From the IMG/VR virus record IMGVR_UViG_3300035182_002389, positions 96,001 to 160,000 of that record: a stretch of DNA of 64,000 bases, one strand, 5' to 3'. The stretch comes from a virus (Duplodnaviria; Caudoviricetes). Positions 16,998 to 46,252 of the stretch are shown piece by piece (position 1 is the stretch's first letter; each line of letters begins with the position of its first letter). The position numbers were made by a program, and so were the translations under genes. The notes under the pieces were generated by a model. That model did not search any database, had not been told where the DNA came from, and worked only from the letters and a program-made list of their open reading frames with translations.

Positions 16998-17160
16998 GTC
17001 TCCCCCTTCCCGTTCCCGTTCCCGTTCCCAGCGTGCCGAAGGCGCGCGTTCCCCCTTCCCGAATCCCGCGCCGAAGGCGCGTCTCGGTCCTGCGAGCCCC
17101 CACAAGACGAGATCGGGAACGCTCGCTGCGCGAGCTGGCAACGGGAACGGGGACGGAAGC
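16998..17160. repeat. inverted pair of family-2 hairpin-(GGGAAC)n elements
   Basis: Minus-strand copy (TTCCCG)n...GCGTGCCGAAGGCGCGC and plus-strand copy CAAGACGAGATCGGGAAC-GCTCGCTGCGCGAGC-TGGCAACGGGAAC. Confidence 0.85.
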
Positions 17161-17511
17161 ATGAGAAAGCTCACCTTCTCGCACGACGACCCGTGGCCGG
17201 ACGGGCTCGTCGTGAAGTTCTACCTCGTGCCCTTTCCTTACCGCCGCAAGCCCGTCATCACCGTGCGCGAGGAGGCGGCAAGGCCGCAGCGCATCGCAGA
17301 CGTCCCCATGACTCTGCTCAACGCGTCACAGCGCGGCGTGACGGACACGGGGCTCGCCAAAGCCCACAAGGTGACCGCCCTTCCTCGCGCGTACGAGGAA
17401 GAGGACGGCCGCTACACCATTGCCGACGGCCACCACCGCGTCGTTGCCGCGTGGCTGCGCGGCGAAGATCAGGTCCGCATTCGCATCATCGGACTGCCTC
17501 GCAAGAAGTGA
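17161..17511 (+). CDS. ParB/Sulfiredoxin-like domain protein
   Basis: GRYTIADGHHRVVAAWLRG. Confidence 0.7.
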   Translation: MRKLTFSHDDPWPDGLVVKFYLVPFPYRRKPVITVREEAARPQRIADVPMTLLNASQRGVTDTGLAKAHKVTALPRAYEEEDGRYTIADGHHRVVAAWLRGEDQVRIRIIGLPRKK

Positions 17512-17657
17512 GACGAGATCGGGAACAGGAACGCGCCTTCGGCGCTGGGAACGGGAACGGGAACGGGCGAGACAAGACGAAAAGGACGGCCTGCGGCCGA
17601 GCACGGGCTTCGCCCGAGGACGCGCCTTCAGCGCGAGGACGGGCTTCGCCCGAGGGT
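17511..17657 (+). repeat. family-2 element followed by a family-3 tandem mini-hairpin array (4 units)
   Basis: GAGACGAGATCGGGAACAGGAAC-GCGCCTTCGGCGC-T(GGGAAC)3GGG, then AG(G/C)AC-hairpin-G units; between convergent genes. Confidence 0.9.
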
Positions 17658-18230
17658 TCAATGATAGTCGTACTCGATGCCCTGTGCGCGCATCGCGCGA
17701 CGCAGGTCTTCGATGCCCATGCGACCGGCCGCGGCGAGATTCTTCTGGAGCCACGCGTAAAAGCGCTCGGCGTCCTTCTTCTTGACGGCGTAGTAGAGGG
17801 TGTCCTGGTAGAGACTCGTGCCGCCTTGCAGAAGCGAGCTTCGATCGAGCGGCCAGCTTGACCGGATCGAGAAGCGGTGCGGGGTCGCGTCGATCGAGAT
17901 GCGGTCGCCGTTGTCGAGCTTGTGGCTCAGGTGAATCGCGGTCGACATCGGCTCGACGTCGATCGCACGAAGCTCGCGCTCCTCGACGTGGAACCCGTAG
18001 CGGTGCGCGAGAGCTTGGGCGTACGAGCGAGCGTGCGCGTACGTCGGCGCTTGCAGCAGGATGTCGCCGAGACGGTCGAGCGCCGACCCCTTCTCCGACG
18101 ACGCGGTGAGCTGCAAGATCCGCTTGCCGCGCTTGCCTGCGAGGGCCGTGTCGGTGACGACCAGCGAGTTCGCATAGCGATGGACACGCAGCGTGCCCAC
18201 GTGTGCGGTACGACCGATTTCGATGGGCAT
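17658..18230 (-). CDS. hypothetical protein
   Basis: 190-aa ORF; stop abuts the family-3 array. Confidence 0.7.
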   Translation of the reverse strand: MPIEIGRTAHVGTLRVHRYANSLVVTDTALAGKRGKRILQLTASSEKGSALDRLGDILLQAPTYAHARSYAQALAHRYGFHVEERELRAIDVEPMSTAIHLSHKLDNGDRISIDATPHRFSIRSSWPLDRSSLLQGGTSLYQDTLYYAVKKKDAERFYAWLQKNLAAAGRMGIEDLRRAMRAQGIEYDYH

Positions 18231-18239
18231 GGGGTCCTG

Positions 18240-19535
18240 TTAGATCCTGACCGGCACGAGAGCCTTGTCGGAGGGAAGCAGTGCGAGGCGCATGCCGGGC
18301 ATCTTCCCGGTCGCGACCACGTCACCATTCACGAACGTGAGGGTCTGCCCGACAACGGGAACGGGCTGCCCTGCTGCCACGGCCGCACGAAGGTCCTGGA
18401 GCAGCGCGTCCGAGATGGCCAGCGATCGGCCGCCGTCGAGCGCCGAGGCGATCTTCCCCGCGTTGAGCTGCGGGGTCTGCTGGATCAGAGGCGCGCTGCC
18501 CGTGAAGGCCCGTCCGCGCACACCGGCCGTCGCCGCGACCGGCAGGACGTTCACGCCGATGTCATAGGGAGCGCTCGGATCGACGCCCTGCACGTCGTGG
18601 AGATCGAGGAGCACGTTCAGGCTCACCAGCGCGTCGATGAGCGCCTTCTTCTCGGCGTCGGACAGCTCCGAAGCAAGAACGGTCATCGACACGGGGGGAG
18701 GCGTGTCGAGAGGAATGGGCGTCATGCCGCCGCCCGGCCCGACTCCACCCGGCCCGACAGGCGGCCTCCCAAGCCCCGGCGGCGCGGACGGCACCGGAGG
18801 CGGCGGGGGAGGCGTCGGGTTGAACGCGGGGCCCGCGCCCTTGAGCACGCTTGCGGCCTCGTTCGGGCGCAGAAAGAGCAGATCGGTCGGATCCGTCGAC
18901 GTCGGCGTCGAGGAGGTCCTGATCGTTTTCCCGTCCGCGCTCACGAACACGTACAGGCCGGGGAACGCGGGAACACTCGGCGAAGGCTTCGGGCACTGGT
19001 CAGGAGGCGTGCCCATCAGGCAGGGCGACGACGTGCTCGTCGGAATCTCTGCGCGCGGCGTGTTCGCGCTCTGGATCCAGACGAGAATCGAGTCGCTCGC
19101 ATCGGGCGCCTGCATCGCGTACGTCCGCGCCAGCGGCTGATAGCCGGGAGGAGGGGCCATCCCCATTCCCGGGGAGTAGACGGCCTTGGAAATCTGCACG
19201 GGAAGCAGCGCAAGCGGGACGCTGTTCGGCGTCTCGATGGCCCCTCTCCGGTTCGTCGCGAACGCGTTGTAGTCGCTGCCGACACCGGGAGGAGGCGGCA
19301 GGACGGGCGCGATCGAGGTCGCCTTCGAGAGCGCCTTCCACATGCCGACCTTCTCGTCGGCCGTCAGCTCGCCCGTCGCGGTCGAGGGACCGAGATTCGC
19401 GCCGCCCGGAGCCAGCACGTTGCGCATGCCTTGGGCGCCCGCTCCGCCCGACGAGGGCTGGCCCGCGTACCACTTGTAGAGCAGCACGCCGCCGACGGCA
19501 GCACCACCGAGCATCAGGAGCGAGCTTGCCTTCAT
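18240..19535 (-). CDS. signal-anchored Pro-rich protein with two LxxxEK-x-ALxxAL domains
   Basis: MKASSLLMLGGAAVGGVLLYKW anchor; ELTADEKVGMWKALS and ELSDAEKKALIDALV; related to 63285. Confidence 0.8.
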   Translation of the reverse strand: MKASSLLMLGGAAVGGVLLYKWYAGQPSSGGAGAQGMRNVLAPGGANLGPSTATGELTADEKVGMWKALSKATSIAPVLPPPPGVGSDYNAFATNRRGAIETPNSVPLALLPVQISKAVYSPGMGMAPPPGYQPLARTYAMQAPDASDSILVWIQSANTPRAEIPTSTSSPCLMGTPPDQCPKPSPSVPAFPGLYVFVSADGKTIRTSSTPTSTDPTDLLFLRPNEAASVLKGAGPAFNPTPPPPPPVPSAPPGLGRPPVGPGGVGPGGGMTPIPLDTPPPVSMTVLASELSDAEKKALIDALVSLNVLLDLHDVQGVDPSAPYDIGVNVLPVAATAGVRGRAFTGSAPLIQQTPQLNAGKIASALDGGRSLAISDALLQDLRAAVAAGQPVPVVGQTLTFVNGDVVATGKMPGMRLALLPSDKALVPVRI

Positions 19536-19559
19536 GGCGTCGAGCGTATTCTTCCGTTC

Positions 19560-19574
19560 GGCTTGCGACAAGTC
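19560..19574. promoter_or_regulatory. palindromic operator-like site
   Basis: GGCTTGCGACAAGTC between divergent genes. Confidence 0.65.
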
Positions 19575-19600
19575 GATAAGGCTCGTGATACGATCCCGGG

Positions 19601-20125
19601 ATGGCGAACACCGGGCTCATCGTCGGCGGCGTCGGCATCGCAGCGCTCGCTGCCTACGCGGCATTCGGCAAAGAGAAGCCGCGATTTGCCGACGAGCCGA
19701 TGCCGCGGCCGGGACCGCGATCTACGGGGCCGACCTCCATGCGCTTGGGCCCGTCCTCGATGCGCTCCAGCGTCGTCCAAGGCGCGCCGCGGCCTCAGCC
19801 GGCCCCCTCCGTCGAGACGCGCGAGCCGGCGTCGGGGAGGCCTACGACCCACAAGCGAGCGTTCCAGATCGGACCCTATCAGGTGTCGATTCAGGACGGC
19901 CCCTACCACTACGCTTCTCCGGGCGAAACCGTCGAGATCGGCATCTTCCTGCGAGGGTCGCTCATCAACCCGAAGCGCATCGGCCTGCACAAGTACGCGA
20001 AGTTCTGGGAGAAGGGCAACAACCCCGTGGGCGTCCACGTGCCCATCGCCGCCGCCAACCAGCTCCTTCGCGACATCGAGCGGCATGCCGGTTACAAGGC
20101 TCAGCCCCTGAAGAGGAAATCGTGA
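19601..20125 (+). CDS. signal-anchored membrane protein
   Basis: LIVGGVGIAALAAYAAFGKEK; GTGATACGAT 6 nt before the ATG. Confidence 0.75.
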   Translation: MANTGLIVGGVGIAALAAYAAFGKEKPRFADEPMPRPGPRSTGPTSMRLGPSSMRSSVVQGAPRPQPAPSVETREPASGRPTTHKRAFQIGPYQVSIQDGPYHYASPGETVEIGIFLRGSLINPKRIGLHKYAKFWEKGNNPVGVHVPIAAANQLLRDIERHAGYKAQPLKRKS

Positions 20126-20754
20126 CGCCTTCCGCGCTCTCGCTGTGGCCGTGGAAGGGGCAAGAGCGATACTGGCCCTCCGTCGCGGGGTTTCATCTCG
20201 AAGCGCGCGGGTACGGCAAGTACGGCGACGCGAGCGCCGTCGAGTACCGCTACGAGGGGCGCGGCAAGCAGTTCGCGAACCTCGTCGTCACGTTCAGCGC
20301 GCACCGCCACGAAGCGACGGACGGCAAGGCGCCGATCGCGTGGAAGGCAGAATCCTACGGGCCGAAGATCGACGGCACCGTCGCGACGCTCGAAGAGATC
20401 CCGAGGAAGCTCGCCGCGCTCGCGCGATGGGCGCTTCAACGCAAGCACGCCGCGAACGCGTACTTCGCCAAAGCTCTGCCGAGCAGCACGCACTGGAACG
20501 TGAACCACGACGTCGAGTTCTTCGGCGCGACGTACAAGAACCCGCACAGCGACGCGTACATGTCCGTCACCTTCGACGATCCCGCGAGCTTGCTCCTCGG
20601 GCAAAGGGACACGGCCCACATCCGATTCGCGCGCGGCAGCGACTATCAGGGGGCGTACGGGACGAGCCAACACATCGTCACCTACGGCACCCTCGACGAG
20701 ATGCGTGGCGTGCTGAAGATCGCCGAGACGCACTGGAAGGCGTGGAACCGATGA
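20122..20754 (+). CDS. hypothetical protein
   Basis: GTGA-coupled ORF, 210 aa. Confidence 0.7.
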   Translation: MTPSALSLWPWKGQERYWPSVAGFHLEARGYGKYGDASAVEYRYEGRGKQFANLVVTFSAHRHEATDGKAPIAWKAESYGPKIDGTVATLEEIPRKLAALARWALQRKHAANAYFAKALPSSTHWNVNHDVEFFGATYKNPHSDAYMSVTFDDPASLLLGQRDTAHIRFARGSDYQGAYGTSQHIVTYGTLDEMRGVLKIAETHWKAWNR

Positions 20755-21377
20755 CCAACCACAAAGAAGCGCTCGCCAACCTCGAATCTCGCGAGGCGAA
20801 GGTCGCGTACGCGATCAAACACAAGCTGCGCGTGTCGGTCCGTCCCACCCGAGATCGGCACAGGTTCGTCTTTCGCATCGTCACGCCCGATCGCCAGGTG
20901 CTCGACACGTTCGACTGCTCTCGGGCGAACTACGCGCGCATCTCCCGAGCCGGCGCGGACATGGACAAAATCAGCAACGAGCCCGTTCGTCGGTGGCGGC
21001 TCTACGAGACCGCCTCGGGCAACTCTCCCGTGCGCGACTACCTCCTCACGCTCACCGAAGACGAGCAGAGCCGCGTCCGCGCGAAGATGCACATCATCAA
21101 GACCCAGGGCCTCTCGAAAGCCATTCGCATGGCCGCAGAAAAGAGCGACCTCTACGAGATCCATGCCGACGCGAGCAATCGAGCCCTGCGGCTCATCTTC
21201 GCTCCCGAAGGCAAGCGGGGCCACGTTCTGCTCGGCCTCAACGCTTTTGAGAAGCGGTCGCAGAAGACGCCGCGCAGTGCCATCGACACCGCTCTCGCCC
21301 GCCTCGCCGACTGGCGCGAACGACACGAGAAGAGGCGCAGGACAAGCTCGCTCGGGCGCGTCTCTGCCCGGCGGTAG
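20751..21377 (+). CDS. RelE/ParE-superfamily (Gp49/DUF891-like) toxin with N-terminal extension
   Basis: WRLYETASGNSPVRDYL...LYEIHA...LRLIFA...LLGLNAFEKRSQKTPRSAIDTALARL. Confidence 0.8.
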   Translation: MTNHKEALANLESREAKVAYAIKHKLRVSVRPTRDRHRFVFRIVTPDRQVLDTFDCSRANYARISRAGADMDKISNEPVRRWRLYETASGNSPVRDYLLTLTEDEQSRVRAKMHIIKTQGLSKAIRMAAEKSDLYEIHADASNRALRLIFAPEGKRGHVLLGLNAFEKRSQKTPRSAIDTALARLADWRERHEKRRRTSSLGRVSARR

Positions 21378-21381
21378 GTCC

Positions 21382-21906
21382 ATGACCATTCGCTTCACCG
21401 TCGACAAGAAGAGGAAGATCGTCCGCGCTGTCTTCGCCAAAGAGAGCGAGCCGCCGACGTATGCACTCGCCTTCTTCTACAAGATCCGCCGCGCCGATCC
21501 CTACCTCGGCATGGGCGTGCGACTGCTCGTGAAGGGAGAGAGGGGTCGCATGGGGGCTATGATCCTTTCTCTCACCACGCCTGCGCCCGGGGAAATGTCC
21601 ACCGCGTGTGAGAAGGACTACCGCGCGCTGAGGCCCGCGCTCTTTCAGGCGCGCACTCCCCTCTACCGCGTTCGGTCCTCGGACGTGCGCTCGCCCTACC
21701 AAGGCTCCGGTTTTGGCGTCCTCATGTACGCCGCGGCCATCGTTCTCGCCGACCTCCAGGGCACCGGCATCGCCGCCGACGAATGCTACATGGAAAAGGG
21801 CTACGAGGGCATCACGAGCGAAGCCGCACGCCGCGTCTGGGACTCGCGACGGCTCGCGAAGATCGCCAACGTGCGCGGCAGCGTCGCGTTCCTTCGACGC
21901 TCCTAG
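21382..21906 (+). CDS. GNAT-like protein, paralog family A
   Basis: VRSSDVRSPYQGSGFGVLMYAAAI...ADEC. Confidence 0.7.
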   Translation: MTIRFTVDKKRKIVRAVFAKESEPPTYALAFFYKIRRADPYLGMGVRLLVKGERGRMGAMILSLTTPAPGEMSTACEKDYRALRPALFQARTPLYRVRSSDVRSPYQGSGFGVLMYAAAIVLADLQGTGIAADECYMEKGYEGITSEAARRVWDSRRLAKIANVRGSVAFLRRS

Positions 21907-22268
21907 CGCCTCGGCCGCTTGAGATCGACGATTTCGAGCACCTTGATGCGATTCGGATCGAACATGATCCAGTTGTCGTCGAGGTGCACGCTGTCGTAGC
22001 CGAGCTGCGTGAGCTGATCGAGCAGGTATCGATCGTACTCTTTCCAGCCCGCGGTCTTCTGCGCCCGGAGCACGACCTTCATCAGATAGTTGAGACTGCC
22101 TGCGCCGCTCTCGCCGCGCAGGATCACGTCCTTGTCCTCGCTGAACCAGAAGATCCCGCCCATCGCGGAGAAGCTCCGCTGAAAGCGTCGAATGGGGTGC
22201 GAGCCGCCATGATAGGCGATAACCGTTCGCTCGGGCGCGAGGCTCGTTCCGAGGGAGGCCTTGCTCAT
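21903..22268 (-). CDS. ADP-ribosyltransferase-fold protein (ART-PolyVal-like)
   Basis: AYHGG...GIFWFSED...LGYDSV...FDPNRIK. Confidence 0.65.
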   Translation of the reverse strand: MSKASLGTSLAPERTVIAYHGGSHPIRRFQRSFSAMGGIFWFSEDKDVILRGESGAGSLNYLMKVVLRAQKTAGWKEYDRYLLDQLTQLGYDSVHLDDNWIMFDPNRIKVLEIVDLKRPRR

Positions 22269-23350: not shown

Positions 23351-23360
23351 GGCGGGTCTT

Positions 23361-24008
23361 TCAGAGGAAGGCGGCGACGGGGTAGCTGCCGAGATAGTCG
23401 CTCTGCACGGCGTCGTAGTCGATGTTGATCCCCGCCGCGATCGTTCGGTTGCCGGGGTAGAGCTGGAGCATCTGGTAGCCGCGCACGTCGACGTCGGGCG
23501 CGCGGCCGGCCGTCTTCCAGTAGCGCGAGACCGAGAGCGAGTGGTAGAGCTGGCTGCTCGTCAGCGGCACGCCGGGCTCGCAGTAGATGCCGAGGGCCGC
23601 GCCGAACATCCCGCCCGCGACTGCCCCCTTGTACCAGGCGTTCGCGTAGGCGATGCACGCCTCCGCCGTCCCTGCATTGGCCAAATCCAACCAGAGACAA
23701 CCTCCCGCGGGATAGCCCATCGAGATGGCGTACGAAGCTGCGGCTTGGCCGTCCGCGAACCCGATCGACTCGCTCCAGCCGCTCGTGCGCCCGAACTGCA
23801 CGAGCATCACGCCGAGCCCCGCTTGGGTGAGCGCGGCCAGCTCCGTTTTTCCGATCGCGAACGGCGACGACTGCCCCGCGAGCGGGACGTACCGCACGCC
23901 GAACTTCATGCCGGCCTTCACGAGCGTTGCGGCCTGGGCCGCGCTGAGCGCCTCGATCGTGTCGAACCCGAGCATGCCCACGGAGAGAGGCTTCAGGGAA
24001 AGGGTCAT
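23361..24008 (-). CDS. DUF1906-like glycoside hydrolase (GH25-related TIM barrel)
   Basis: GFDT...GMKFGVRYV...GFADGQAA...GYP..LWLDL; GGAGG SD. Confidence 0.75.
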   Translation of the reverse strand: MTLSLKPLSVGMLGFDTIEALSAAQAATLVKAGMKFGVRYVPLAGQSSPFAIGKTELAALTQAGLGVMLVQFGRTSGWSESIGFADGQAAASYAISMGYPAGGCLWLDLANAGTAEACIAYANAWYKGAVAGGMFGAALGIYCEPGVPLTSSQLYHSLSVSRYWKTAGRAPDVDVRGYQMLQLYPGNRTIAAGINIDYDAVQSDYLGSYPVAAFL

Positions 24009-24048
24009 CGTCGTTCCTCCTTCAATCCACCGCGGCCGATCGTACCAC

Positions 24049-24063
24049 GGCTTATCGCAAGCC
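24049..24063. promoter_or_regulatory. palindromic operator-like site
   Basis: GGCTTATCGCAAGCC between divergent genes. Confidence 0.65.
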
Positions 24064-28155: not shown

Positions 28156-29124
28156 ATGGCCGAACATCTCATTTTCGACGGGCACAACCTTGCCGTGCGG
28201 TGCGCGCACGCCATCGAGGCGGCAGGGCTCACGAACGCGGACGGCGTGCCGACCGGCGAAGCGTTCGCCTTCCTCAAGGCCCTCGGCGGCTTCAAGACGC
28301 GCTTCCCACTCGCGAAGGTCACCGTCGTGTGGGACGGGTCGAGCCACAAGCGCAAGGCCGTCTTCGACGGGTACAAGGCCAGCCGCGGGATGCTCCGCAA
28401 GACCTTCCCCGTCGAGTACCTGAAGGGTCTTCTGCCCTTCCTTTCCGTTCGTCAGGCCATGAGCCCGACCGACGAGGCGGACGACGTCATCGGCGTCCTC
28501 GTGCGCGTTCGCTCCAGCGCAGAGCGAGATCGGGAACGCTCGCCTTCGGCGAGCTGGGAACGGGAACGGGAACGGGAAGAAGACCGCTTCACCATCGTCA
28601 CGACCGACTGCGATCTCCTTCAAACCGTCACGCCGAAGGTCCGCGTCCTCATGCCGCCAGCGGGCGCTGCAAAAGATCGCCGCGAGACCTTGTACGGCGA
28701 GATCGAGGTGCTTGCCGAGTACGGCGTGCCTGTCGGCCAGCTCCTCGACCTTCGCGCGCTCGCGGGAGACGTCTCCGACGAGATCCCCGGCGTGCCCGAG
28801 CTGGGGCCCAAGCGCGCCGCAAAACTCCTCACCTTCCACGGATCACTCGACGCCGTCTTCGAGGAGGCGCTGCGTGACAAGGCTCGCAAGCGCAAAGGCA
28901 TCCTCGCCTCGCCGATGACGGACCTTCAGCGCAAGAACCTGCGCGAGCACGAAGGAATCGTTCGACGCAATCTTGCGATCATGCGCCTCTCGGACGTCGA
29001 CGAGATCACGTACACCGAAGGCGCTTTCAAGGCTCTTCAAGCGGCCGTGCTTCTCCAGAAGCTCGACATCAAGGTCGACCCCATCCTCGACTTGTTCTTC
29101 CCGAAGCAGACCGCGTTCGCGTAG
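28156..29124 (+). CDS. 5'-3' exonuclease / flap endonuclease (Pol I N-terminal-like)
   Basis: IFDGHNL, VVWDG...RK...YKASR, EADDVIG, IVTTDCDLLQ, LAGDVSDEIPGVPELGPKRAAKLL (H3TH). Confidence 0.95.
   Translation: MAEHLIFDGHNLAVRCAHAIEAAGLTNADGVPTGEAFAFLKALGGFKTRFPLAKVTVVWDGSSHKRKAVFDGYKASRGMLRKTFPVEYLKGLLPFLSVRQAMSPTDEADDVIGVLVRVRSSAERDRERSPSASWEREREREEDRFTIVTTDCDLLQTVTPKVRVLMPPAGAAKDRRETLYGEIEVLAEYGVPVGQLLDLRALAGDVSDEIPGVPELGPKRAAKLLTFHGSLDAVFEEALRDKARKRKGILASPMTDLQRKNLREHEGIVRRNLAIMRLSDVDEITYTEGAFKALQAAVLLQKLDIKVDPILDLFFPKQTAFA
28522..28578 (+). repeat. family-2 element inserted in frame in the exonuclease
   Basis: GAGCGAGATCGGGAAC-GCTCGCCTTCGGCGAGC-T(GGGAAC)3GGGAA; encodes ERDRERSPSASWERERERE. 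Confidence 0.9.
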
Positions 29125-30485: not shown

Positions 30486-30550
30486 CTTCTGCTCATTCTG
30501 CGTACGTCAGGGCTCGCTGTCGATGACTTTCAGTAAGCCAGCCGCCCGAA

Positions 30551-30614
30551 ACAAGATCGGGAAACGCTCGCTGCGCTCGCTGGGAACGGGAACGGGAACG
30601 GGAACGGGAGCGGG
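30551..30614 (+). repeat. family-2 element (hairpin degenerate)
   Basis: ACAAGATCGGGAAAC-GCTCGCTGCGCTCGC-T(GGGAAC)4GGGAGCGGG. Confidence 0.85.
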
Positions 30615-30657
30615 CAAGGCTTTGCCTCGCCCGCGTCGATCGGCGTAGACTCACGCC

Positions 30658-31758
30658 ATGCCGTACATCAAAGGCGCCTCCGAAGAGTCCGTCGCACAAA
30701 ATGTGGATTTTGCCCTTCGCGAAGGAAAAAGCCACGATCAGGCGATGGCCATCGCGCGCTCCTACGCGAACCGCGTGCTCAAGGCACGCCGCCACGTCTG
30801 GACCCAAGAGCGCGAGCGCATCTTCCAGGTCGGCGTTCGGATGGGCGTCGCGAAGTACCACGGCAAACGAGCGCGCCGCGACGCTCCGCCGAAGCATGTC
30901 CGCAAAGCTCGCGTCTTCGTTCGCCTCTCCTACCCCCTCGGCGACGGGACGCAGAAGCAGCAAGAGGCCGTCGCGCGAAAAGCCGACATGCGCATCTACG
31001 AAGCTGCCGGGGGCCGTCTCACGACCAAATCGGGCGGCGCGTATGGCCGCCTCGGGCATCGCTCGCACTCGTTCGAGTACGCGACCCCCGACAGCGCCCA
31101 GCGCGTGCTCCACGCCATCGAGAAGCTCAAGATCAAGGGCCTGAAGATCGGCATCGTCTCGATCGTATGGGACGAATCGGGCCGCGCGCAGTCGACCTCG
31201 CTGACCTCCTTGCCGGCCGCGAAGCCAGCCAAGAAGCCGGCCAAGAAGCCGGCGAAGGCCGCGAAGAAGCCGGCCAAGAAGAAGCCGGCGAAAGCCGCGA
31301 AGAAGAGGCCCGCGAAGGCCGCGAAGAAGCCTGCGAAGGCCGCGAAGAAGAAGCCCGCGAAGGCCGCGAAGAGGCCGGCGAAGGCTGCGAAGAAGCCGGT
31401 CAAGACCTCGACCAAGACCTCGACCAAGAGGACCTCCGCCAAGAAGGTCGTCCCGACCTTCGAGGTGTGGGGCTGGAAGGGCAACAAGGGTCACAAGCTC
31501 TCGACCCACACCCGCGAGACCAACGCCATCGAAGCGGCGAAAAAGATCAAGGGCTACGACAAGGTCCGAGTGCAAGTTCACATGGGGCGCGAAACCAAGA
31601 GCTTCACCGTGCAGGGGCCGCGCGGCGGCGTCGGCCGCGTCGGCGGCACGATGCCGAAGTCGCGCGGACCTGCGAAGAAGACGACCAAGAAGACGGCCAA
31701 GAAAGCGGCAAAGAAGTCTGCCAAGACCACGCGCCGGCAGAGCGTGCCGCCGTTCTGA
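30658..31758 (+). CDS. histone H1-like Lys/Ala/Pro-rich DNA-condensing protein
   Basis: About ten PAKAAKK/PAKK repeats and a basic C-terminal tail; TAGACT 6 nt before the ATG. Confidence 0.8.
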   Translation: MPYIKGASEESVAQNVDFALREGKSHDQAMAIARSYANRVLKARRHVWTQERERIFQVGVRMGVAKYHGKRARRDAPPKHVRKARVFVRLSYPLGDGTQKQQEAVARKADMRIYEAAGGRLTTKSGGAYGRLGHRSHSFEYATPDSAQRVLHAIEKLKIKGLKIGIVSIVWDESGRAQSTSLTSLPAAKPAKKPAKKPAKAAKKPAKKKPAKAAKKRPAKAAKKPAKAAKKKPAKAAKRPAKAAKKPVKTSTKTSTKRTSAKKVVPTFEVWGWKGNKGHKLSTHTRETNAIEAAKKIKGYDKVRVQVHMGRETKSFTVQGPRGGVGRVGGTMPKSRGPAKKTTKKTAKKAAKKSAKTTRRQSVPPF

Positions 31759-39848: not shown

Positions 39849-39884
39849 CCATCTGCGCCAGCCTTACGGTACACTGGAGACACC

Positions 39885-41042
39885 ATGAACCCCCTGCTCC
39901 TCGTTCTGATCGCTGGCGGCGCTGCTGCGGCCTACTTCCTCACGAAGAAGTCGACGCCCGTCGCCGACACGACCGGGCAGCCGGCGCAGCCCGATCAGCC
40001 TGTCACGCCCCCGGGGCCTGCTGTCAAGCCGAAGCCGGTCGCCGTGCTTCCGCAGGCGCTCGACGCGGGGCAGCGCAGCGCGCTCTACAAGTCCCTTCCG
40101 ACGATGGATCTCGTGGACGGTCCGACCAAGACGCCGTCGAACGCGTCCGGGACCATCGCCGTCTCGAAGATCAGCCTCAAGAAGAACGCCATCTCCAGCG
40201 AGGTGCGCACCGACGCGTTCCCCATCATCGCTTCGGCGAACCTCGGCGGCCCCGACGGCAAGGCGCACAAGACGACCATCCTCGCGACCATGACCAACGA
40301 ACCTGGCGGGATGGAGATCGCCGCAGTCGACGGCGCCGACCTCGCGCGCTCGATGCTGCTGCCGGGCAGCCGCTGGTTCCTCTTCATGGAACCGGGGCAG
40401 GCCACGACGCTCTCGAAGGAAGCGGGCGCGCCTGCCATCCCCGCGAACCTTCCGCCCATCGTCATGCCCGACACCGGCGCCCCGAAGCAGGCGCTCACAA
40501 ATCCGCTCACGAGCAGCAGTCACATCTCGAAGGACAACATCGTCTTCAAACCGATCTTCCTCATCCACGGACTGATCGGCGACAAGGCCAACACTCCGCT
40601 CGCTGACATCCCGGGCCCCACGGGCATCAACGCGCGCGCTGCCGCGACCCGCTCCGACTCGGCCTCGATGGTCACGTGGGCCGACCAGCTCATCTCCGAG
40701 GGCTACACCAAGGCCGCCCAGGCGCTCTTCGATCAAGCCTACGCGATCGGATGGCGGGCATCGCCGACCGATCACAAGGAGCGAATGATTCTCGGCGACA
40801 TGCTCGACGCGAGTGCGCCGAACTACGACGCGGCCTACATCGCAGACGGCGTCGTCTTCAGCAATGCGGGCGACGGATCGTTCAACCTCGACGATCTTCG
40901 CGCGCTCGTCTACGCGGCGAAGACCGTGCCTCTGCCGACGCAGGTCGGCCCGCTCAACGACGCTGCGGCGAGCTTCCTCGCTGCTGGCTACACGGGCCTC
41001 GCGGGCGAGCTGAGCAACCTCGCCAAGAGCATCGTGGGCTGA
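39885..41042 (+). CDS. signal-anchored membrane protein, paralog of 38187
   Basis: MNPLLLVLIAGGAAAAYFLTKK; PQALD...PGGME...PGSRWFLF shared with 38187. Confidence 0.85.
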   Translation: MNPLLLVLIAGGAAAAYFLTKKSTPVADTTGQPAQPDQPVTPPGPAVKPKPVAVLPQALDAGQRSALYKSLPTMDLVDGPTKTPSNASGTIAVSKISLKKNAISSEVRTDAFPIIASANLGGPDGKAHKTTILATMTNEPGGMEIAAVDGADLARSMLLPGSRWFLFMEPGQATTLSKEAGAPAIPANLPPIVMPDTGAPKQALTNPLTSSSHISKDNIVFKPIFLIHGLIGDKANTPLADIPGPTGINARAAATRSDSASMVTWADQLISEGYTKAAQALFDQAYAIGWRASPTDHKERMILGDMLDASAPNYDAAYIADGVVFSNAGDGSFNLDDLRALVYAAKTVPLPTQVGPLNDAAASFLAAGYTGLAGELSNLAKSIVG

Positions 41043-41244
41043 TTCCAACCTCTTCTGCTTGTTGGCCGCGACCGTGCTTCATAGCGCGCCGCGGCCGACT
41101 TGCATTTCGGACCGCGAGCTGGCGGATCAAGACCGACTTACGCTAAGCTCGAACCCATGGAACCGCTTCTGCTCTCGGCCGCGGACGACTGATCGTTTCG
41201 AGTCCACGATCCAAAACGATCAACCATCGAGGCGCGCCCGCACC

Positions 41245-42168
41245 ATGCCCCCCATCCTCATCGTCCTGATCGCCGGCGGCATCTTCGCCTACCTCATGTC
41301 GCGCGCTCCCAAAGGCGCGACGCCCATGGCGGGATCTACGCAAGGCTCCGCGCTCAGACGGTCCCCCGACACCGTTCGCATCGCTCCGGTGACGTACAGC
41401 GCGGCGTTCCCGCAGACGCTCACGAAGTCCGAGCAGATCCAGTTCCTCAAAGCCCTGCTCACCTACCGCATCATCGATCAGATGGGCGAGGTCACTCCCG
41501 CGCTGCCAATGGGCGTCACGGTCCCGAAGGATGGCGGGTCCGACGCTGCAACACTCTTGCCAGCAGCCTCTTCCGATGGCGTTGCGGCGCTGCCTATCGT
41601 CGCTGCCGCCAACCGCCTCGGTCACATCATCCTCGCGACCACGCCGCTCGACGGCGGCAAACGCGGACTCATCTCGCTCGGGCCGAAGGTCGACTACAAG
41701 CCCTTCGTGGCGCCCGGCTCGAACTGGTTTCTCTTCCTTCTACCAGGCGCCATCGAGCGCCTCGCAGACGAAGCCAAGATCACGCTGCCCGCGCCTTTTG
41801 GCCGCGGCGAAATCCTCGACGCATCCTTCGTTCAAGAGGCTCCGTCCTACGTCGCTCCCACCAGCACGCCCGCGTACGCGATGATGAAGGTCGAGCCTGC
41901 ACCGGCTCCGAAGACCGAAGACGACGTCGCGCAGATCGAGATCAAGGCGACCACGGCCGCCGACGATCTATCCGGGGCCGAGTTCAAGAACGAAGCCCAG
42001 GTTTGGGCTCGCGCGAAGGGGGCCTCCACCGATGAGGAGAAGGCCGCAGTCATCCCCGATCTCGTAGCCGACTCCGCGGTGCTCAAAGCCAAGGGATACG
42101 ATCTCGCGTCGAGCCAGTTCCTCACCCAAGCGACGACCTACGGGTACGTCACAACGCCGAAGGCCTGA
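41245..42168 (+). CDS. signal-anchored membrane protein, same family
   Basis: MPPILIVLIAGGIFAYLM; PGSNWFLF; LKAKGYDLASSQF. Confidence 0.8.
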   Translation: MPPILIVLIAGGIFAYLMSRAPKGATPMAGSTQGSALRRSPDTVRIAPVTYSAAFPQTLTKSEQIQFLKALLTYRIIDQMGEVTPALPMGVTVPKDGGSDAATLLPAASSDGVAALPIVAAANRLGHIILATTPLDGGKRGLISLGPKVDYKPFVAPGSNWFLFLLPGAIERLADEAKITLPAPFGRGEILDASFVQEAPSYVAPTSTPAYAMMKVEPAPAPKTEDDVAQIEIKATTAADDLSGAEFKNEAQVWARAKGASTDEEKAAVIPDLVADSAVLKAKGYDLASSQFLTQATTYGYVTTPKA

Positions 42169-42170
42169 CC

Positions 42171-42674
42171 ATGAAGGCTCTACACCTCGTCGCTGCGGGA
42201 GGCGCTGCTCTCCTTCTTTTCGGCCTCCTGAAGAAAAAGGCTTCTGCCGCTGCCGGCACGACGCTCAACCAGCCCGTCCAGACCTTCGCCACGAAGAACC
42301 AAGTCGGCTGCCTCCAGTACACGCTCAACCAACGCTACGGGCTCAAGCTCCCCGAGACCGGCATCTACGACGAGGCGACCAGGGTCGCCGTCCAGCAAGC
42401 CCAGAGCGAACTTGGCCTGCCCACGACCGGAGAGATCGATCTTCCGTTGCTCACGAAAATCGGCGGATGCGGATCGATGGAGACCTTCTACCGCTGCGTA
42501 CAGAAGGCCTTGAATGCAACCAAGCGCCCCGACGGCACAACCTACGAAAAGGTCGACGAAGACGGCCTGCTCTCTTCGCCCCTCGTGCGCGCTTTGCGTC
42601 AGTTCCAGGCGGATTACAACCTGCCCGTGACCGGCCGACTCGATCTTTTGACGCTCAACGCGGTACAATGCTGA
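42171..42674 (+). CDS. signal-anchored protein with two peptidoglycan-binding (PG_binding_1-like) domains
   Basis: LQ..LN....TGIYD..TR.AV...Q...GLP.TG..D repeated twice. Confidence 0.85.
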   Translation: MKALHLVAAGGAALLLFGLLKKKASAAAGTTLNQPVQTFATKNQVGCLQYTLNQRYGLKLPETGIYDEATRVAVQQAQSELGLPTTGEIDLPLLTKIGGCGSMETFYRCVQKALNATKRPDGTTYEKVDEDGLLSSPLVRALRQFQADYNLPVTGRLDLLTLNAVQC

Positions 42675-42720
42675 GCGCTGCGGCGACGAGCCGAAACGCA
42701 CCCTGATCTGGAGCTACACC

Positions 42721-43710
42721 ATGGGCCCTCTTCCTATCATTCTCGGCGGCGGCGCTGTGCTCCTTGCGCTCGCGTTCGGCAAGAAGTCCTCGGTTGCGTC
42801 GCTGACCAGCAACCCTCAGCCGACCCCCTACACGCCGCCGAACATCCTCCCGCCGGGGCCCACGCCGCCGAAGCCAGTCCCTCCCCAGGATTTGCCCATG
42901 GGCACTTCCGGCGGCGCGAGCAAGGCCGAGATCACCTGCTTGCAGACGCAGCTCAGCATGCTCCGGTCGCCCGACGGCGCCGGATACAACACGGGCGGCA
43001 TCGACGGCGTCTGGACGAGCGGAACGTCCTCCGCGCTCGCGAAGTTCCAGAAAGATGCCGGCCTGCCGGTCACCGGAAGCATCGACGCGGCGACCCGATC
43101 GGCCGAAGCCTTCGCCATGTGCTTCTCGGCCAGCGCGCCGCAGCCTTCGAGCGGCCCCGACATGACCGGCGGCGCCACCGCGTACCAAATCCGCTGCCTC
43201 CAAAGCGCTCTGAACAACCGCTACAACGATCAGAACGTCAAGGAAGACGGTCTCTGGTCAAGCGCGCTCGGCACCGTCGTCTCTCGCGCGCAAACCGACG
43301 CGGGGCAGGCCGTCACCGGCCGCATCACCCCCGAGCTGCTCGCGCAAGCCGGATGCTCTGCTGCCGCGCCGACCGTGTATCCGTCGACCTTCGGCGACAC
43401 CATCGCGTGCGACGTCAACGGCAACATGCCTGACGCGAAGAAGACGGCGGACCTCAAGGCCGCCATCAACGCGTCGACCAGCGAAGCCGACCTCAACGAG
43501 TTCGCGAACTTCTGCCTCTCGCTCGACAAGCCCTGCACGGGTCTGCACGACTACGCGCTCGCCCGCATCGTCGGGATGCGCGAGAACAAGACCACCGAGC
43601 AAGTCCTGCAAGAGCAGCACGACGCCGCCGTCGCTGCCGCGCAACAAGCGGGAGGCGTCGTCAAGGACGCTGCTGGCAACGTCATCGACACCTTCAAGAA
43701 CATGTTCTGA
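42721..43710 (+). CDS. signal-anchored protein with peptidoglycan-binding domains
   Basis: IDGVWTSGTSSALAKFQKDAGLPVTGSID and EDGLW...AQTDAGQAVTGRI. Confidence 0.85.
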   Translation: MGPLPIILGGGAVLLALAFGKKSSVASLTSNPQPTPYTPPNILPPGPTPPKPVPPQDLPMGTSGGASKAEITCLQTQLSMLRSPDGAGYNTGGIDGVWTSGTSSALAKFQKDAGLPVTGSIDAATRSAEAFAMCFSASAPQPSSGPDMTGGATAYQIRCLQSALNNRYNDQNVKEDGLWSSALGTVVSRAQTDAGQAVTGRITPELLAQAGCSAAAPTVYPSTFGDTIACDVNGNMPDAKKTADLKAAINASTSEADLNEFANFCLSLDKPCTGLHDYALARIVGMRENKTTEQVLQEQHDAAVAAAQQAGGVVKDAAGNVIDTFKNMF

Positions 43711-43723
43711 TCGGGAGAGTGAA

Positions 43724-43951
43724 ATGCGAGTCTCGATCGGAAATCGTGTCGCCCTCGACGTGCAGACCGGCAAGGAGGGCGAGACCCTCCTGCTCCTGCT
43801 CACGGTTCAAACCCCGTGGGGCCCCATCTCCAACGCGACGAGCGTGAGCGCGCAGACGCTTCGCGCCATGCTTGTGTGGCTCCGCTCGAACTACGGCACG
43901 CTCGCGTACGATTTCGTTGCCGCGCGCAGCGGCCTGCTCCGTCGCCGCTGA
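43724..43951 (+). CDS. hypothetical protein
   Basis: GGAG SD; 75 aa. Confidence 0.6.
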   Translation: MRVSIGNRVALDVQTGKEGETLLLLLTVQTPWGPISNATSVSAQTLRAMLVWLRSNYGTLAYDFVAARSGLLRRR

Positions 43952-43963
43952 ACCAACATTCCC

Positions 43964-43978
43964 GGCTTACCGCAAGCC
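43964..43978. promoter_or_regulatory. palindromic operator-like site
   Basis: GGCTTACCGCAAGCC. Confidence 0.6.
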
Positions 43979-43999
43979 TTCATCCAAGAAAGCACGATC

Positions 44000-44644
44000 A
44001 TGTCGCACACCCGTGAAGAAGTTCTGACCCGCGCGATGGACGTCAACGCGCAGATGCAGGAAGTCGGCAAACTCGCCTTCTCGCTCTGCTTCGACCTTCA
44101 AGGGGCGGTCGCTACGGGCATGGCAGCCATCGCCAACATGAGCCCGACGCTCACCGAGGTCGCCGCCGTTCAGGCCTCGTTGCTCGGCGACATGATCCCG
44201 CAAATCGCCGTCAGCGTTCGGCGATGCAAGTCGCTGAACACGGTTCAGGCCGGCGGCGACGCCGCTTTCGTCTCGAAGTTCACGTCGCTGCTCGCGCGCT
44301 GGAAGCTCTTCACCCGCCGCATCCAGGTGTTCAACCTCTTCGGCCAAGGTCCCGACAGCGCGTGGGACACCGTCGGCGTCTACGAGAACATCCTCGCGAA
44401 GTATCGCCAGGAAGTGCAGCTCCTCGCGCCGACGACCGTGGCCAACATCGTCGAGCAGGAGGCGACGCCTCCGAACGTCCTGCCCGAGCCCGTCGACGCG
44501 AGCGCGGCTCCTTCGACCCAGATCGTCGCAGGCGCCGCAGGCGCAAGTGTGCCGGTCGCCGGCACGCCGTGGGCTCTCATCGGCGGCGCGGCCATCGGCG
44601 GCGCAGCGCTCACCTATCTGCTGACGAAGCGTTCGTCCCGATAG
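44000..44644 (+). CDS. C-terminally anchored helical protein, trio member 1
   Basis: HTREEV...RWKLFTRRIQ.F.LFG.GPDSAW; C-terminal TM. Confidence 0.8.
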   Translation: MSHTREEVLTRAMDVNAQMQEVGKLAFSLCFDLQGAVATGMAAIANMSPTLTEVAAVQASLLGDMIPQIAVSVRRCKSLNTVQAGGDAAFVSKFTSLLARWKLFTRRIQVFNLFGQGPDSAWDTVGVYENILAKYRQEVQLLAPTTVANIVEQEATPPNVLPEPVDASAAPSTQIVAGAAGASVPVAGTPWALIGGAAIGGAALTYLLTKRSSR

Positions 44645-44684
44645 GCGACCGAAACCTCGACCCTTCACGCGAAAGAACAAGACC

Positions 44685-45401
44685 ATGCCTTTGCTCGACA
44701 CCCACTCGCGTGAAGAGGTCCGCGCCAAAGCGGCGAACGTCGACGCCTCGATGAAGGAGTTCGAGAAGATCGTCCTCTCGCGGATGGCCTTCGACCCGAG
44801 CGCCATCGGTTCGGCGGTCAATGCCGCGCTCGCTCCCGACGCTCCCAACGCCGGCGAGTCCGCCAGCATCCTCGCTGCCAACCTCTCCGATACGGCGCCG
44901 TACATCGGCCCCTCCGTTCAACGCCGCGCCACCATCAGCGCTGCCCAGGCGACCAAGGAGACCGACTTCGCCACGAAGTTCATGGCCTTCTACGCGCGAT
45001 GGAGCCTCTTCTACAAGCGCATCCAAGGGTTCGATCTCTTCGGGCCGTCCCCCGACGCCGCGTGGAAGATCGTGACCGACTACGAGACGAACCTCGGCAC
45101 CTACAAGCAGGAAGCCGCGCAGATCATGGCCGCGTCGGCCGCTACGCCCGGCCCTGTGTTCGGGCCGCCCATCAACCCGACTCCGGTCGTTCCCGGCCAA
45201 CCTGCACTGCCGGGGCAGCCTGCGACGCCCGCGCTCCCCGGGGCAGGGCCCGCCCTGTCCTCGGGCATCCCGTCGTGGCTCCTCATCGGCGGCGTGGCTG
45301 TCGGCGGCGTCCTGCTCGCCCACTACCTGACCAAGTCGAAGGGGCCGACCAGCGGCCAGTCCCTGCCTTCCGCGAGCTTCGCGAGCTACCGAGGCCGGTA
45401 G
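44685..45401 (+). CDS. C-terminally anchored helical protein, trio member 2
   Basis: HSREEV...RWSLFYKRIQGFDLFGPSPDAAW; C-terminal TM. Confidence 0.8.
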   Translation: MPLLDTHSREEVRAKAANVDASMKEFEKIVLSRMAFDPSAIGSAVNAALAPDAPNAGESASILAANLSDTAPYIGPSVQRRATISAAQATKETDFATKFMAFYARWSLFYKRIQGFDLFGPSPDAAWKIVTDYETNLGTYKQEAAQIMAASAATPGPVFGPPINPTPVVPGQPALPGQPATPALPGAGPALSSGIPSWLLIGGVAVGGVLLAHYLTKSKGPTSGQSLPSASFASYRGR

Positions 45402-45445
45402 CCCGAACTTCGCCACCGAACCTTTCGAGCCCTTCGAGGAGACCC

Positions 45446-46180
45446 ATGGCCGACTATCAGAACGCGCTCTTCAACACCCACGAACGCGGAGAGGTGAGGG
45501 CGCGAGCGTCGACCGTCGATGCGGCGATCTCGACCTACAATCGAGACCTGCTCGCGCAGATCGCGTTCGATGCGGCCGACGTCGGAACGAACCTCTCAAA
45601 GTACCTCACGAACGATCTCGGCGCGTCCGACGGCGAAGCTTCGCTCATCGTGGAAGAGAGCGTCGCCGTCGCCGCTCCCTTCCTCGTGCACGCAGGACAG
45701 CGCGTCGCCATCGTCCCGGTCGACACCGCACAGAGCGAGAAGACCTTCTACCAGGGATGGTCGAAGTTCTACGGCAAGTGGAAGCTCTTCTTCACGCGCA
45801 TCCAAAGCTTCAGCCTGCTCGGCCCGTCCCCCGACGACGCCTGGAACATGCTCATGCAGTTCGAGACCGATTTTGCCGCGTGGAAGAAGCAGGGCGAGAC
45901 CCTGCTCCACGTCAAATCGACGGCCCCCGACGTTCCCGCTCTCCCGCAGCCGGATCCGGGCGCCGTCGAGAAGTTCGGCTCCTCCGTCGAGTCGGTCGCG
46001 AAGACGGTCCTGCTCTACGGCGCGCTCGCGGGCGGCGGGTTCCTTCTCTACAAGTACCTCTCCTCGCGTGTCGAGGAGCGCAACATCGGCCTTGGCGAAC
46101 GACGCGCTGGCGGCTCCATGGGCGGCTCGATGATCGGGTCTGCCGAGCCCTACGGCTACCTTCCTTCAGGCCGGCGCTGA
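45446..46180 (+). CDS. C-terminally anchored helical protein, trio member 3
   Basis: HERGEV...KWKLFFTRIQSFSLLGPSPDDAW; TM near the C-terminus. Confidence 0.8.
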   Translation: MADYQNALFNTHERGEVRARASTVDAAISTYNRDLLAQIAFDAADVGTNLSKYLTNDLGASDGEASLIVEESVAVAAPFLVHAGQRVAIVPVDTAQSEKTFYQGWSKFYGKWKLFFTRIQSFSLLGPSPDDAWNMLMQFETDFAAWKKQGETLLHVKSTAPDVPALPQPDPGAVEKFGSSVESVAKTVLLYGALAGGGFLLYKYLSSRVEERNIGLGERRAGGSMGGSMIGSAEPYGYLPSGRR

Positions 46181-46181
46181 G

Positions 46182-46252
46182 GCAAGACGAGATCGGGAAC
46201 GCGCCTTCGGCGCTGGGAACGGGAACGGGAACGGGAACGGGAACGGGAACGG
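46182..46252 (+). repeat. family-2 element with (GGGAAC)6
   Basis: GCAAGACGAGATCGGGAAC-GCGCCTTCGGCGC-T(GGGAAC)6GG; fills almost the whole intergenic gap. Confidence 0.95.

What the first reader, a model, noticed from the sequence alone, without database searches (positions are those of the whole stretch)
16998..46252. Family-2: GNA hairpin plus a (GGGAAC)n tail that keeps at least four GGG tracts (G-quadruplex module)
Seen: six copies (about 16998 on the minus strand; 17102, 17511, 28522, 30551 and 46182 on the plus strand) with consensus CAAGACGAGATCGGGAAC-[5-7-bp stem, loop TTC/TGC = GAA/GCA on the other strand]-T(GGGAAC)3-6. Stem sequences differ but stay paired (GCGCC/GGCGC, GCTCGCC/GGCGAGC, GCTCGC/GCGAGC). 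Five of the six copies keep at least four G3 tracts with 3-nt loops, the minimum for a three-tier intramolecular G4, including the copy inside a gene. The hexamer number varies like a telomeric or slippage-extended tail. Inferred: a bifunctional element with a G4 on one strand and an ultrastable hairpin on the other, possibly a priming, recombination or packaging signal or a selfish mini-element.
Basis: partly seen in the sequence, partly recalled or inferred. Interest (0 to 1): 0.8.

Follow-up and report, generated by a model that had tools for sequence, protein, structure and literature searches.

The report
Mobile hairpin repeat with hexamer tails
The hairpin-plus-(GGGAAC)n repeat is real, but it is best read as a small selfish repeat that comes and goes between strains of an uncultured 202-kb bacterial virus and even sits in frame inside two enzyme genes, not as a conserved G-quadruplex device.

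Summary
All six window copies exist at the stated places. The first two are the two arms of one ~160-bp branched palindrome.

Genome-wide the family has about 20 units at 13 loci of a 202,518-bp, 65% GC virus contig that encodes a protein-primed DNA polymerase. A unit is a GA-rich leader (GAGACGAGATCGGG), a 5-7-bp GC stem with a TTC or TGC loop, and a (GGGAAC)n tail.

- **Insertions in genes:** two loci lie in frame inside enzyme genes, adding 52 residues to a metallophosphoesterase and 19 to a flap endonuclease. All homologues lack these residues.
- **Strain differences:** a 94%-identical flap-endonuclease orthologue has the empty site. One full copy is present in a sister strain where this genome is empty, and the reverse holds at another site. 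Hexamer number differs between strains (9 versus 4).
- **G-quadruplex claim:** tails carry 0-9 G3 tracts, and only 10 of 20 units have four or more.
- **Mobility:** no target duplication and no transposase were found, so the mechanism is unknown.
- **Unexplained polarity:** the leader (13:1) and the triloop hairpins keep one genome strand whatever the direction of the neighbouring genes.

Other windows of this same genome were noted earlier in the scan for the same family. Nothing was found on other DNA.

The parts
16998..17160 (.). Composite copy. It is a ~163-bp branched palindrome that fills the spacer between a stop codon (16995-16997) and the ATG at 17161.
   Evidence: Sequence. DNA fold -49.9 kcal/mol, z = -4.97. 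A sister-strain contig, L050, has a 19-nt spacer here instead.
17003..17069 (-). Left arm of the composite, read on the minus strand: the (GGGAAC)3 tail lies at 17012-17029 and the 7-bp stem (one mismatch, GAA loop on the + strand) at 17031-17047.
17068..17080 (+). Inner small hairpin of the composite (5-bp stem, GAA loop on the + strand).
   Evidence: Sequence and fold. It is partly deleted (11 nt) in the sister-strain copy on L049.
17103..17160 (+). Right arm of the composite: leader/core 17103-17120, 6-bp stem with TGC loop 17121-17135, degenerate tail 17137-17160 (2 G3 tracts) ending at the start codon.
17509..17568 (+). Solo unit. Its leader overlaps the stop codon of the gene at 17161-17511. 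Hairpin at 17533-17545 and (GGGAAC)3 tail at 17547-17567, with 4 G3 tracts.
   Evidence: It is present with small changes in sister-strain contig L050.
28520..28578 (+). Solo unit inserted in frame in the 5'-3' exonuclease gene (28156-29124). It adds about 19 residues between two conserved motifs. Hairpin at 28538-28554, tail at 28556-28578.
   Evidence: Pfam, translation, gap against Taq polymerase, empty site in the 94%-identical orthologue P0122. Sister strain L046 has one more hexamer and stays in frame.
30551..30614 (+). Solo unit between divergent genes, with a shortened leader, a broken stem at 30566-30580 and a tail at 30582-30614 carrying 6 G3 tracts.
   Evidence: The matching intergenic gap in the P0122 contig is 67 nt shorter, which is only indirect evidence of absence there.
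46183..46252 (+). Solo unit that fills the spacer between a stop codon (46178-46180) and an ATG at 46259. Core 46183-46200, hairpin 46201-46213, (GGGAAC)6 tail 46215-46252.
   Evidence: The sequence is identical in a contig from another sample, L143.

Best explanation
Family-2 is a lineage-specific, non-coding, non-autonomous repeat of an uncultured ~200-kb virus. It behaves as selfish DNA of the MITE / Rickettsia-palindromic-element kind.

The basic unit is about 57-75 nt: a GA-rich leader, one GC-rich triloop hairpin and a (GGGAAC)n microsatellite tail. Two diverged units in inverted orientation form ~160-200-bp branched palindromes.

Shown:
- Copies are gained, lost or relocated between closely related strains.
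- They persist only where they do little harm, namely short intergenic spacers and, in frame and without stop codons, a disordered surface loop of two enzymes.
- The tails change length in 6-nt steps.

Inferred:
- Spread uses a single-strand, hairpin-dependent copy or cut-and-paste step, or template switching during strand-displacement replication. This would explain the missing target duplication, the missing terminal repeats in solo units and the fixed strand polarity.
- The enzyme acting in trans is not identified.
- The G-quadruplex potential of long tails is a by-product of the repeat, not a maintained property.
For: 1. Multi-copy family: about 20 units at 13 loci, none past 142 kb.
2. 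In-frame insertions: 52 residues in a metallophosphoesterase are missing from all nine aligned homologues, while the catalytic residues are kept. The inserted segment has pLDDT below 50 while much of the rest of the model exceeds 90. About 19 residues are inserted in the flap endonuclease relative to Taq.
3. Filled and empty sites between close relatives:
   - Orthologue P0122 is 94% identical, syntenic and lacks the 19 residues.
   - Sister-strain contig L049 carries a full composite at genome 40816/40820, where this genome is empty. That copy is closest (87%) to this genome's 113.0-kb copy.
   - Contig L050 lacks the 113.0-kb composite.
4. Tail length differs between strains: 9 versus 4 hexamers (L047), one extra hexamer in frame (L046) and 3 versus 5 (L049).
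5. Decay: some copies have broken stems and some tails are degenerate.
6. Distant relatives (43-52% protein identity) lack the family at the matching loci.
7. Rfam finds nothing here, and promoter-like and terminator-like sites are not enriched.
Against: - No target-site duplication appears at the two site pairs available as DNA, and the flanks next to the junctions are unusually diverged. At 113.0 kb the element replaces a 19-nt spacer rather than simply interrupting it. This fits recombination or replacement as well as transposition.
- No Y1 or Y2 transposase, HNH, GIY-YIG, reverse transcriptase, TnpB or tyrosine recombinase was found in the virus.
- The same two hairpin types, with TTC and TGC loops and a G-rich hexamer tail of different sequence, occur in a relative whose phosphoesterase is only ~49% identical. 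That hints at selection or long persistence.
- The leader (13 on + against 1 on -) and the triloop hairpins (13:0 between minus-strand genes) keep one strand. A purely neutral repeat does not predict this.
- Some tails abut start codons and may supply ribosome-binding sequence.
Confidence: 0.62

Rival explanations
1. Regulatory cassette. The units would be gene-boundary signals (terminator, RNase III-type processing stem, or leader that supplies the ribosome-binding site) that also promote modular recombination, like the promoter/stem-loop cassettes (PeSLs) of T4-type phages.
For: - Most copies sit exactly between a stop codon and the next start. Several tails end 0-15 nt before a start codon.
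- At 113.0 kb the element replaces a spacer that held a GAGGAG ribosome-binding site.
- Composite copies fold into long stems.
- Indels between strains coincide with the elements, as described for PeSLs (PMC2839356).
Against: - Two loci lie inside enzyme genes.
- At 81.3 kb and 81.98 kb the units point against the local minus-strand genes.
- There is no U-tract after the hairpins and no enrichment of promoter-like or terminator-like sites.
- Close relatives do without the element at the same gene boundaries.
Confidence: 0.15
2. Polar DNA-level signal. The leader-hairpin units would be read on one DNA strand by the replication or packaging machinery of a protein-primed linear genome, for example hairpins on the displaced strand or guide sequences for a translocase. 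Their spread would then be selected.
For: - The leader motif is 13:1 on the + strand and always intergenic.
- Intergenic GC-rich triloop hairpins show T(T/G)C on the + strand 35:9. Between minus-strand genes the ratio is 13:0.
- The virus has a DNA_pol_B_2 (protein-primed type) polymerase.
- The same hairpin types occur in a distant relative.
Against: - Copies are dispensable at individual sites in close strains.
- Copies cluster unevenly, with none beyond 142 kb.
- Orientation does not flip where the GC skew turns near 115 kb.
- Composites carry the hexamer array on both strands.
- No binding protein or assay is available.
Confidence: 0.12
3. Functional G-quadruplex module. The tail would be kept at four or more G3 tracts so that a three-tier G4 forms on the + strand opposite a stable GNA hairpin.
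For: - Ten units have 4-9 G3 tracts with 3-nt loops. Folding with G4 energies places a quadruplex in most of them.
- G-rich repeats of similar design form G4s in vitro in Xanthomonas and Nostoc (PMC4692102).
- A relative has a (GGGGCA)3 tail ending in GGGG next to the same hairpin.
Against: - Ten of 20 units have 0-3 tracts, and the distribution is flat with no preference for four.
- In composites the G arm pairs with a complementary C arm.
- Tail length drifts between strains.
- In-gene tails are simply read as Glu-Arg or Gly-Thr repeats.
Confidence: 0.05

Closest known systems
Rickettsia palindromic elements (RPEs)
   Same: Short palindromic repeats that spread within one lineage. They are often inserted in frame in unrelated enzyme genes and are tolerated as an extra surface segment (review PMC10969869). 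Here there are two such insertions, and one is modelled as a disordered loop.
   Different: The host is a bacterial virus, not a bacterium. There is no sequence relation. These units carry a microsatellite tail of variable length, occur as half units as well as palindromes, and show a fixed strand polarity.
Prokaryotic MITEs (Correia/NEMIS, ERIC, RUP and others)
   Same: Small, non-coding, multi-copy and mostly intergenic. They show presence/absence between strains, have inverted arms in the full copies and are able to fold.
   Different: No target-site duplication, no defined terminal inverted repeats in solo units, and no parent insertion sequence or transposase found.
IS200/IS605-derived palindrome-associated elements and REP/BIME with RAYT
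   Same: Hairpin-based, with no terminal inverted repeats and no target duplication, and with an orientation bias tied to a DNA strand rather than to genes. BIME-like clusters of alternating hairpins are also a shared feature.
   Different: No Y1 (HUH) transposase is detectable in the virus. There is no conserved tetranucleotide guide. Copies occur inside genes. The hexamer tails have no counterpart.
PeSL cassettes of T4-type phages (PMC2839356, PMC4122927)
   Same: Repeated stem-loop cassettes at gene boundaries of a large phage genome that coincide with insertion, deletion and replacement differences between close strains.
   Different: PeSLs contain a sigma-70 promoter and a working terminator and follow gene direction. 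Family-2 shows neither, ignores gene direction and also enters coding sequence.
GGGNATC G4-forming simple sequence repeats of Xanthomonas and Nostoc (PMC4692102)
   Same: G3-tract repeats with variable unit number, mostly non-coding, able in principle to form quadruplexes.
   Different: [quoted passage not shown] Here the array is the tail of a hairpin element, not a free-standing repeat.

Membership tests
MITE | Small, non-coding, multi-copy element | tested here: met
   About 20 units of 57-75 nt, or 160-200 nt as composites, at 13 loci.
MITE | Terminal inverted repeats | tested here: inconclusive
   Composites have inverted (GTTCCC)n/(GGGAAC)n arms. Solo units have none.
MITE | Target-site duplication at insertions | tested here: not met
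   Filled-versus-empty alignments at genome 40.8 kb and 113.0 kb show no duplication. One is a replacement of 19 nt.
MITE | Related autonomous element or transposase acting in trans | tested here: not met
   Y1_Tnp, Y2_Tnp, TnpB, RVT_1, HNH, GIY-YIG and Phage_integrase are all absent from the virus in six-frame searches. A host-encoded enzyme could not be tested.
Rickettsia palindromic elements | In-frame, stop-free insertion into functional genes at tolerated positions | tested here: met
   Metallophosphoesterase +52 residues and flap endonuclease +19 residues. Homologues lack them, the catalytic residues are kept, and the insert has pLDDT below 50.
Rickettsia palindromic elements | Sequence homology to an RPE family or occurrence in Rickettsia | not tested
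   No RPE sequences were compared here. The host differs (a virus of a GC-rich bacterium). This is treated as an analogy only.
REP/BIME (RAYT-mobilised) | RAYT/Y1 transposase gene present and strictly extragenic location | tested here: not met
   No Y1_Tnp match. Two loci are intragenic.
G4-forming SSR (Rehm et al. type) | Unit number biased to the four tracts needed for a quadruplex | tested here: not met
   Tract counts run from 0 to 9 and are flat. Ten of 20 units fall below four.
G4-forming SSR (Rehm et al. type) | Quadruplex formation in vitro | not testable with these tools
   Only in-silico folding with RNA G4 energies was possible.
PeSL-type regulatory cassette | Sigma-70-like promoter plus terminator hairpin, oriented with the gene | tested here: not met
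   No promoter-like or terminator-like enrichment. Orientation is independent of gene strand.
N4-type hairpin promoter | 5-7-bp stem with a 3-nt loop, read by a giant virion RNA polymerase | tested here: inconclusive
   The hairpin geometry fits. The largest gene called by my own heuristic gene caller is 905 residues, so an N4-size polymerase looks unlikely. No RNA polymerase search was run.

The most novel reading that the evidence does not exclude
The family, together with the other triloop-hairpin families that share its GA-rich leader, could be a new kind of single-strand, hairpin-dependent mobile or signal element specific to protein-primed linear viruses. Its orientation would be locked to the genome's replication or packaging polarity. 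It would be moved without any known transposase, for example by template switching of the strand-displacing polymerase. The gene-carrying version seen in a relative, a PF05635 four-helix-bundle gene flanked by the same two hairpins with outward G-hexamer tails, could be its parent form.
Probability: 0.15. Interest if true: 0.8.

Novelty: new variant of a known kind. Interest (0 to 1): 0.5.

Why it matters
Selfish palindromic repeats that insert in frame into enzyme genes are well known from Rickettsia. I found no report of them in bacterial viruses in the papers I searched.

Here one is caught in the act, with filled and empty sites in strains that are 94-98% identical, in a large and poorly understood virus lineage. 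This gives a natural system for asking how hairpin repeats spread without a recognisable transposase, how much extra peptide an enzyme loop tolerates, and why hairpins in this genome keep one strand regardless of transcription.

It also warns against reading a G-quadruplex function from a handful of copies. The wider census removes the apparent 'at least four tracts' rule.

Tried and rejected
- **Searches of public collections:**
  - IMG/VR scans for T(GGGAAC)3, for hexamer-hairpin-hexamer and for the two hairpin types followed by G tracts gave only unrelated or coding hits.
  - The scan of one genome per prokaryote species gave one coding repeat in an actinobacterial MAG with no hairpin.
  - The flap endonuclease found no relative in IMG/VR.
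  - Relatives cannot be drawn for a virus record.
  - The megablast of 20 kb of the window against the phage collection found no match.
- **Sequencing runs:**
  - No RNA holder is listed, so nothing can be said about expression.
  - The laid contigs show 6-nt and 5-nt indels at 17522 and 17051. These are best explained by cross-mapping of paralogous copies, so they give no evidence of within-population tail heterogeneity.
  - One independent sample has the identical (GGGAAC)6 tail.
- **RNA and regulatory readings:**
  - Rfam finds only a tRNA in the window.
  - ECF-sigma promoter reading (GGAAC as a -35 box): no CGT-type -10 box at the right spacing in any unit, judged by eye.
  - N4-type hairpin promoter: no giant polymerase-size gene.
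- **Telomere link:** no hexamer arrays and no inverted repeats at the contig ends.
- **Target-site duplication:** none. The partial resemblance of some 3' flanks to the leader (GACGAGAT) was not pursued statistically, because that string is also the favoured Asp-Glu-Ile codon run.
- **HUH Rep families PF02407 and PF01446:** no match, but the controls did not ring either, so these two searches are uninformative.
- **Other:** DNA for the empty-site contig of P0122 is not held.
Full report
**Context**

The window is bases 96001-160000 of a single 202,518-bp contig. It is an IMG/VR virus record rated 94% complete, with no end repeats. GC content is 65%. About 340 genes were called with my own codon-bias heuristic, and most lie on the + strand.

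Recognisable genes include a 5'-3' exonuclease, lysins and a GDSL hydrolase. There is also a protein with sigma-70 region 4 and a DNA_pol_B_2 polymerase of the protein-primed type. Megablast of 20 kb against the phage collection found nothing. The nearest metallophosphoesterase homologues (43-52% identity) sit on viral-looking contigs next to the same kind of polymerase. Minicystis (Myxococcota) proteins are among the cellular hits.

**Observation**

The repeat is real and far beyond chance. A profile built from 18 units finds about 20 units at 13 loci between 19.9 and 142.3 kb, and none elsewhere. The six window copies are at the stated places.

A unit has three parts. The first is a GA-rich leader ending in GATCGGG. 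The second is a 5-7-bp GC stem with a TTC or TGC loop. The third is a T followed by GGGAAC hexamers.

The copies at 16998(-) and 17102(+) are not separate. They are the arms of one branched palindrome that folds far better than shuffles (z = -5.0). The same composite design occurs at 19.9, 27.9, 54.5 and 81.2 kb (z = -5.8 for the 54.5-kb copy). Solo units do not fold better than shuffles (z = -1.6 to +0.7).

The hairpin is paired in 93.8% of cells. Its variation is between two or three stem types, and three copies have broken stems, including the window copy at 30551.

**What the copies do to genes**

Two loci lie inside genes and are in frame.

- The 54.5-kb composite adds 52 residues to a metallophosphoesterase. 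All nine aligned homologues lack these residues, and the catalytic residues are intact. In an AlphaFold model the insert (residues 112-152) has pLDDT below 50 with no secondary structure, between two confidently modelled strands.
- The window copy at 28520-28578 adds about 19 residues to the flap endonuclease, between two conserved motifs.

**Mobility**

An orthologue from another sample, P0122, is 94% identical outside the gap. It has the same neighbouring genes and lacks exactly those 19 residues. In that contig the next intergenic gap is 67 nt shorter than here. This is about the size of the window copy at 30551, but no DNA is held, so the point is only indirect.

A pattern scan of JGI metagenomes returned four contigs of a sister strain, 94-98% identical to this genome.

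- L049 carries a full composite just downstream of the polymerase gene, at genome 40816/40820, where this genome has none. That copy is most like this genome's 113.0-kb copy (87%).
- L050 has a 19-nt spacer with a GAGGAG box where this genome has the 113.0-kb composite, which is the window copy at 16998-17160.
- Hexamer numbers differ: 9 here against 4 in L047, one extra in-frame hexamer in the L046 endonuclease copy, and 3 against 5 in the composite.

Neither junction pair shows a target duplication. The flanks next to the junctions are more diverged than the surrounding DNA.

Six-frame searches of the virus found no Y1 or Y2 transposase, TnpB, reverse transcriptase, HNH, GIY-YIG or tyrosine recombinase. 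Two Rep families gave uninformative blanks.

**The G-quadruplex claim**

Within the window, five of six tails do have four or more G3 tracts. Across all 20 units the counts run 0, 1, 1, 1, 2, 2, 2, 3, 3, 3, 4, 4, 4, 5, 5, 6, 6, 6, 8 and 9. Half are below four and there is no mode at four.

In composites the G arm is complementary to the C arm. [quoted passage not shown] This family does not. Quadruplex formation by the longer solo tails is still chemically plausible and remains untested.

**Things that a plain selfish-repeat reading does not explain**

- The leader motif GAGACGAGA occurs 13 times on the + strand, always intergenic, and once on the - strand. It also heads other hairpin families of this genome.
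- GC-rich triloop hairpins are about threefold enriched in intergenic DNA. There they show T(T/G)C on the + strand 35 times against 9 for G(A/C)A. Between two minus-strand genes the ratio is 13 to 0. The polarity therefore follows the genome, not transcription.
- The polarity does not flip where the cumulative GC skew turns near 115 kb.
- A relative whose phosphoesterase is only ~49% identical (L040) has the same two hairpin types. They have TTC and TGC loops and longer stems that contain this family's stems, and each is followed by a (GGGGCA)n tail. They stand in inverted orientation around a small PF05635 gene directly after the polymerase gene.
- Another relative (L041) has a hairpin with a (GGGAGC)n arm in the gap that splits its polymerase gene.

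The architecture is therefore older than this strain cluster. That points either to a long-lived element lineage or to some selected role.

**Reading**

I put about 0.6 on a non-autonomous selfish repeat of the MITE/RPE kind. Its tails change by slippage, and its spread uses a single-strand, hairpin-dependent step or template switching. That mechanistic part is inference.

- A regulatory cassette gets 0.15. It is undermined by the intragenic copies, by units pointing against local genes, and by the lack of promoter or terminator features.
- A selected polar DNA signal for replication or packaging gets about 0.12.
- A maintained G4 device gets about 0.05.

**Relation to earlier notes of this scan**

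Other first-stage readers described the same family in neighbouring windows of this same genome, including half and full copies, the in-frame insertion in an enzyme, and the common orientation. I reached the in-frame insertion and the half/full architecture independently before seeing those notes. I tested the orientation claim myself. A look-up by sequence found nothing in other genomes.

Noticed in passing
whole genome; in the window e.g. 1635, 5058, 6373, 6426, 29690, 29707, 29744: GC-rich triloop hairpins in intergenic DNA keep T(T/G)C on the + strand (35 against 9). Between two minus-strand genes the ratio is 13 to 0, so hairpin polarity follows the genome rather than transcription.
   Followed up: partly
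window 6286-6339: Tandem array (period 11, about 4 copies) of the same GA-rich leader motif (CGAGACGAGAG). It lies directly upstream of a different multi-hairpin repeat with GGGGG/CCCCC stems, so the leader is shared between hairpin families.
   Followed up: partly
window 17583-17655: Array of four small TTC/TGC-loop hairpins spaced by GAGGAC hexamers, immediately after the solo unit at 17509-17568. It looks like another member of the hairpin-repeat theme.
   Followed up: no
L040 11525-12050: In a distant relative, a 95-residue PF05635 (23S rRNA intervening-sequence protein family) gene directly after the polymerase gene is flanked by the same two hairpin types in inverted orientation, each with an outward (GGGGCA)n tail. 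It may be a cargo-carrying form of the element.
   Followed up: partly
L049 1105-1894 (genome site about 40343): The sister strain has about 790 extra bases inside the region of the C-terminal half of the DNA polymerase gene. The open frame spanning it gave no Pfam match. It could be an intein or another insert.
   Followed up: partly
L027 1-30 (genome start): The contig begins with a run of 22 C after CGG. No inverted terminal repeat is found between the two contig ends, so the true termini are probably missing.
   Followed up: partly
window 30536-31000 in laid metagenome contigs: Summed contig depth over the (GGGAAC)n tail is 700-1800x in three runs where the virus itself is at about 5-50x (78x in the fourth), with many different loose ends. 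Hexamer arrays of this kind therefore occur in other, more abundant organisms of the same samples.
   Followed up: no
window 17161-17511: A 116-residue gene bracketed by family-2 units on both sides carries a DGHHR-type motif that recalls ParB-like N-terminal domains. Only weak family hits were obtained (DUF1015, E = 0.008).
   Followed up: no
L039, L041, L044 intergenic regions: The 15-bp palindrome GACTT-N5-AAGTC, noted by other readers as frequent upstream of genes in this genome, also occurs in intergenic DNA of distant relatives. It is a better candidate for a conserved regulatory site than family-2.
   Followed up: no
window 49865-49936: A single tRNA gene (Rfam 59.4 bits).
   Followed up: no
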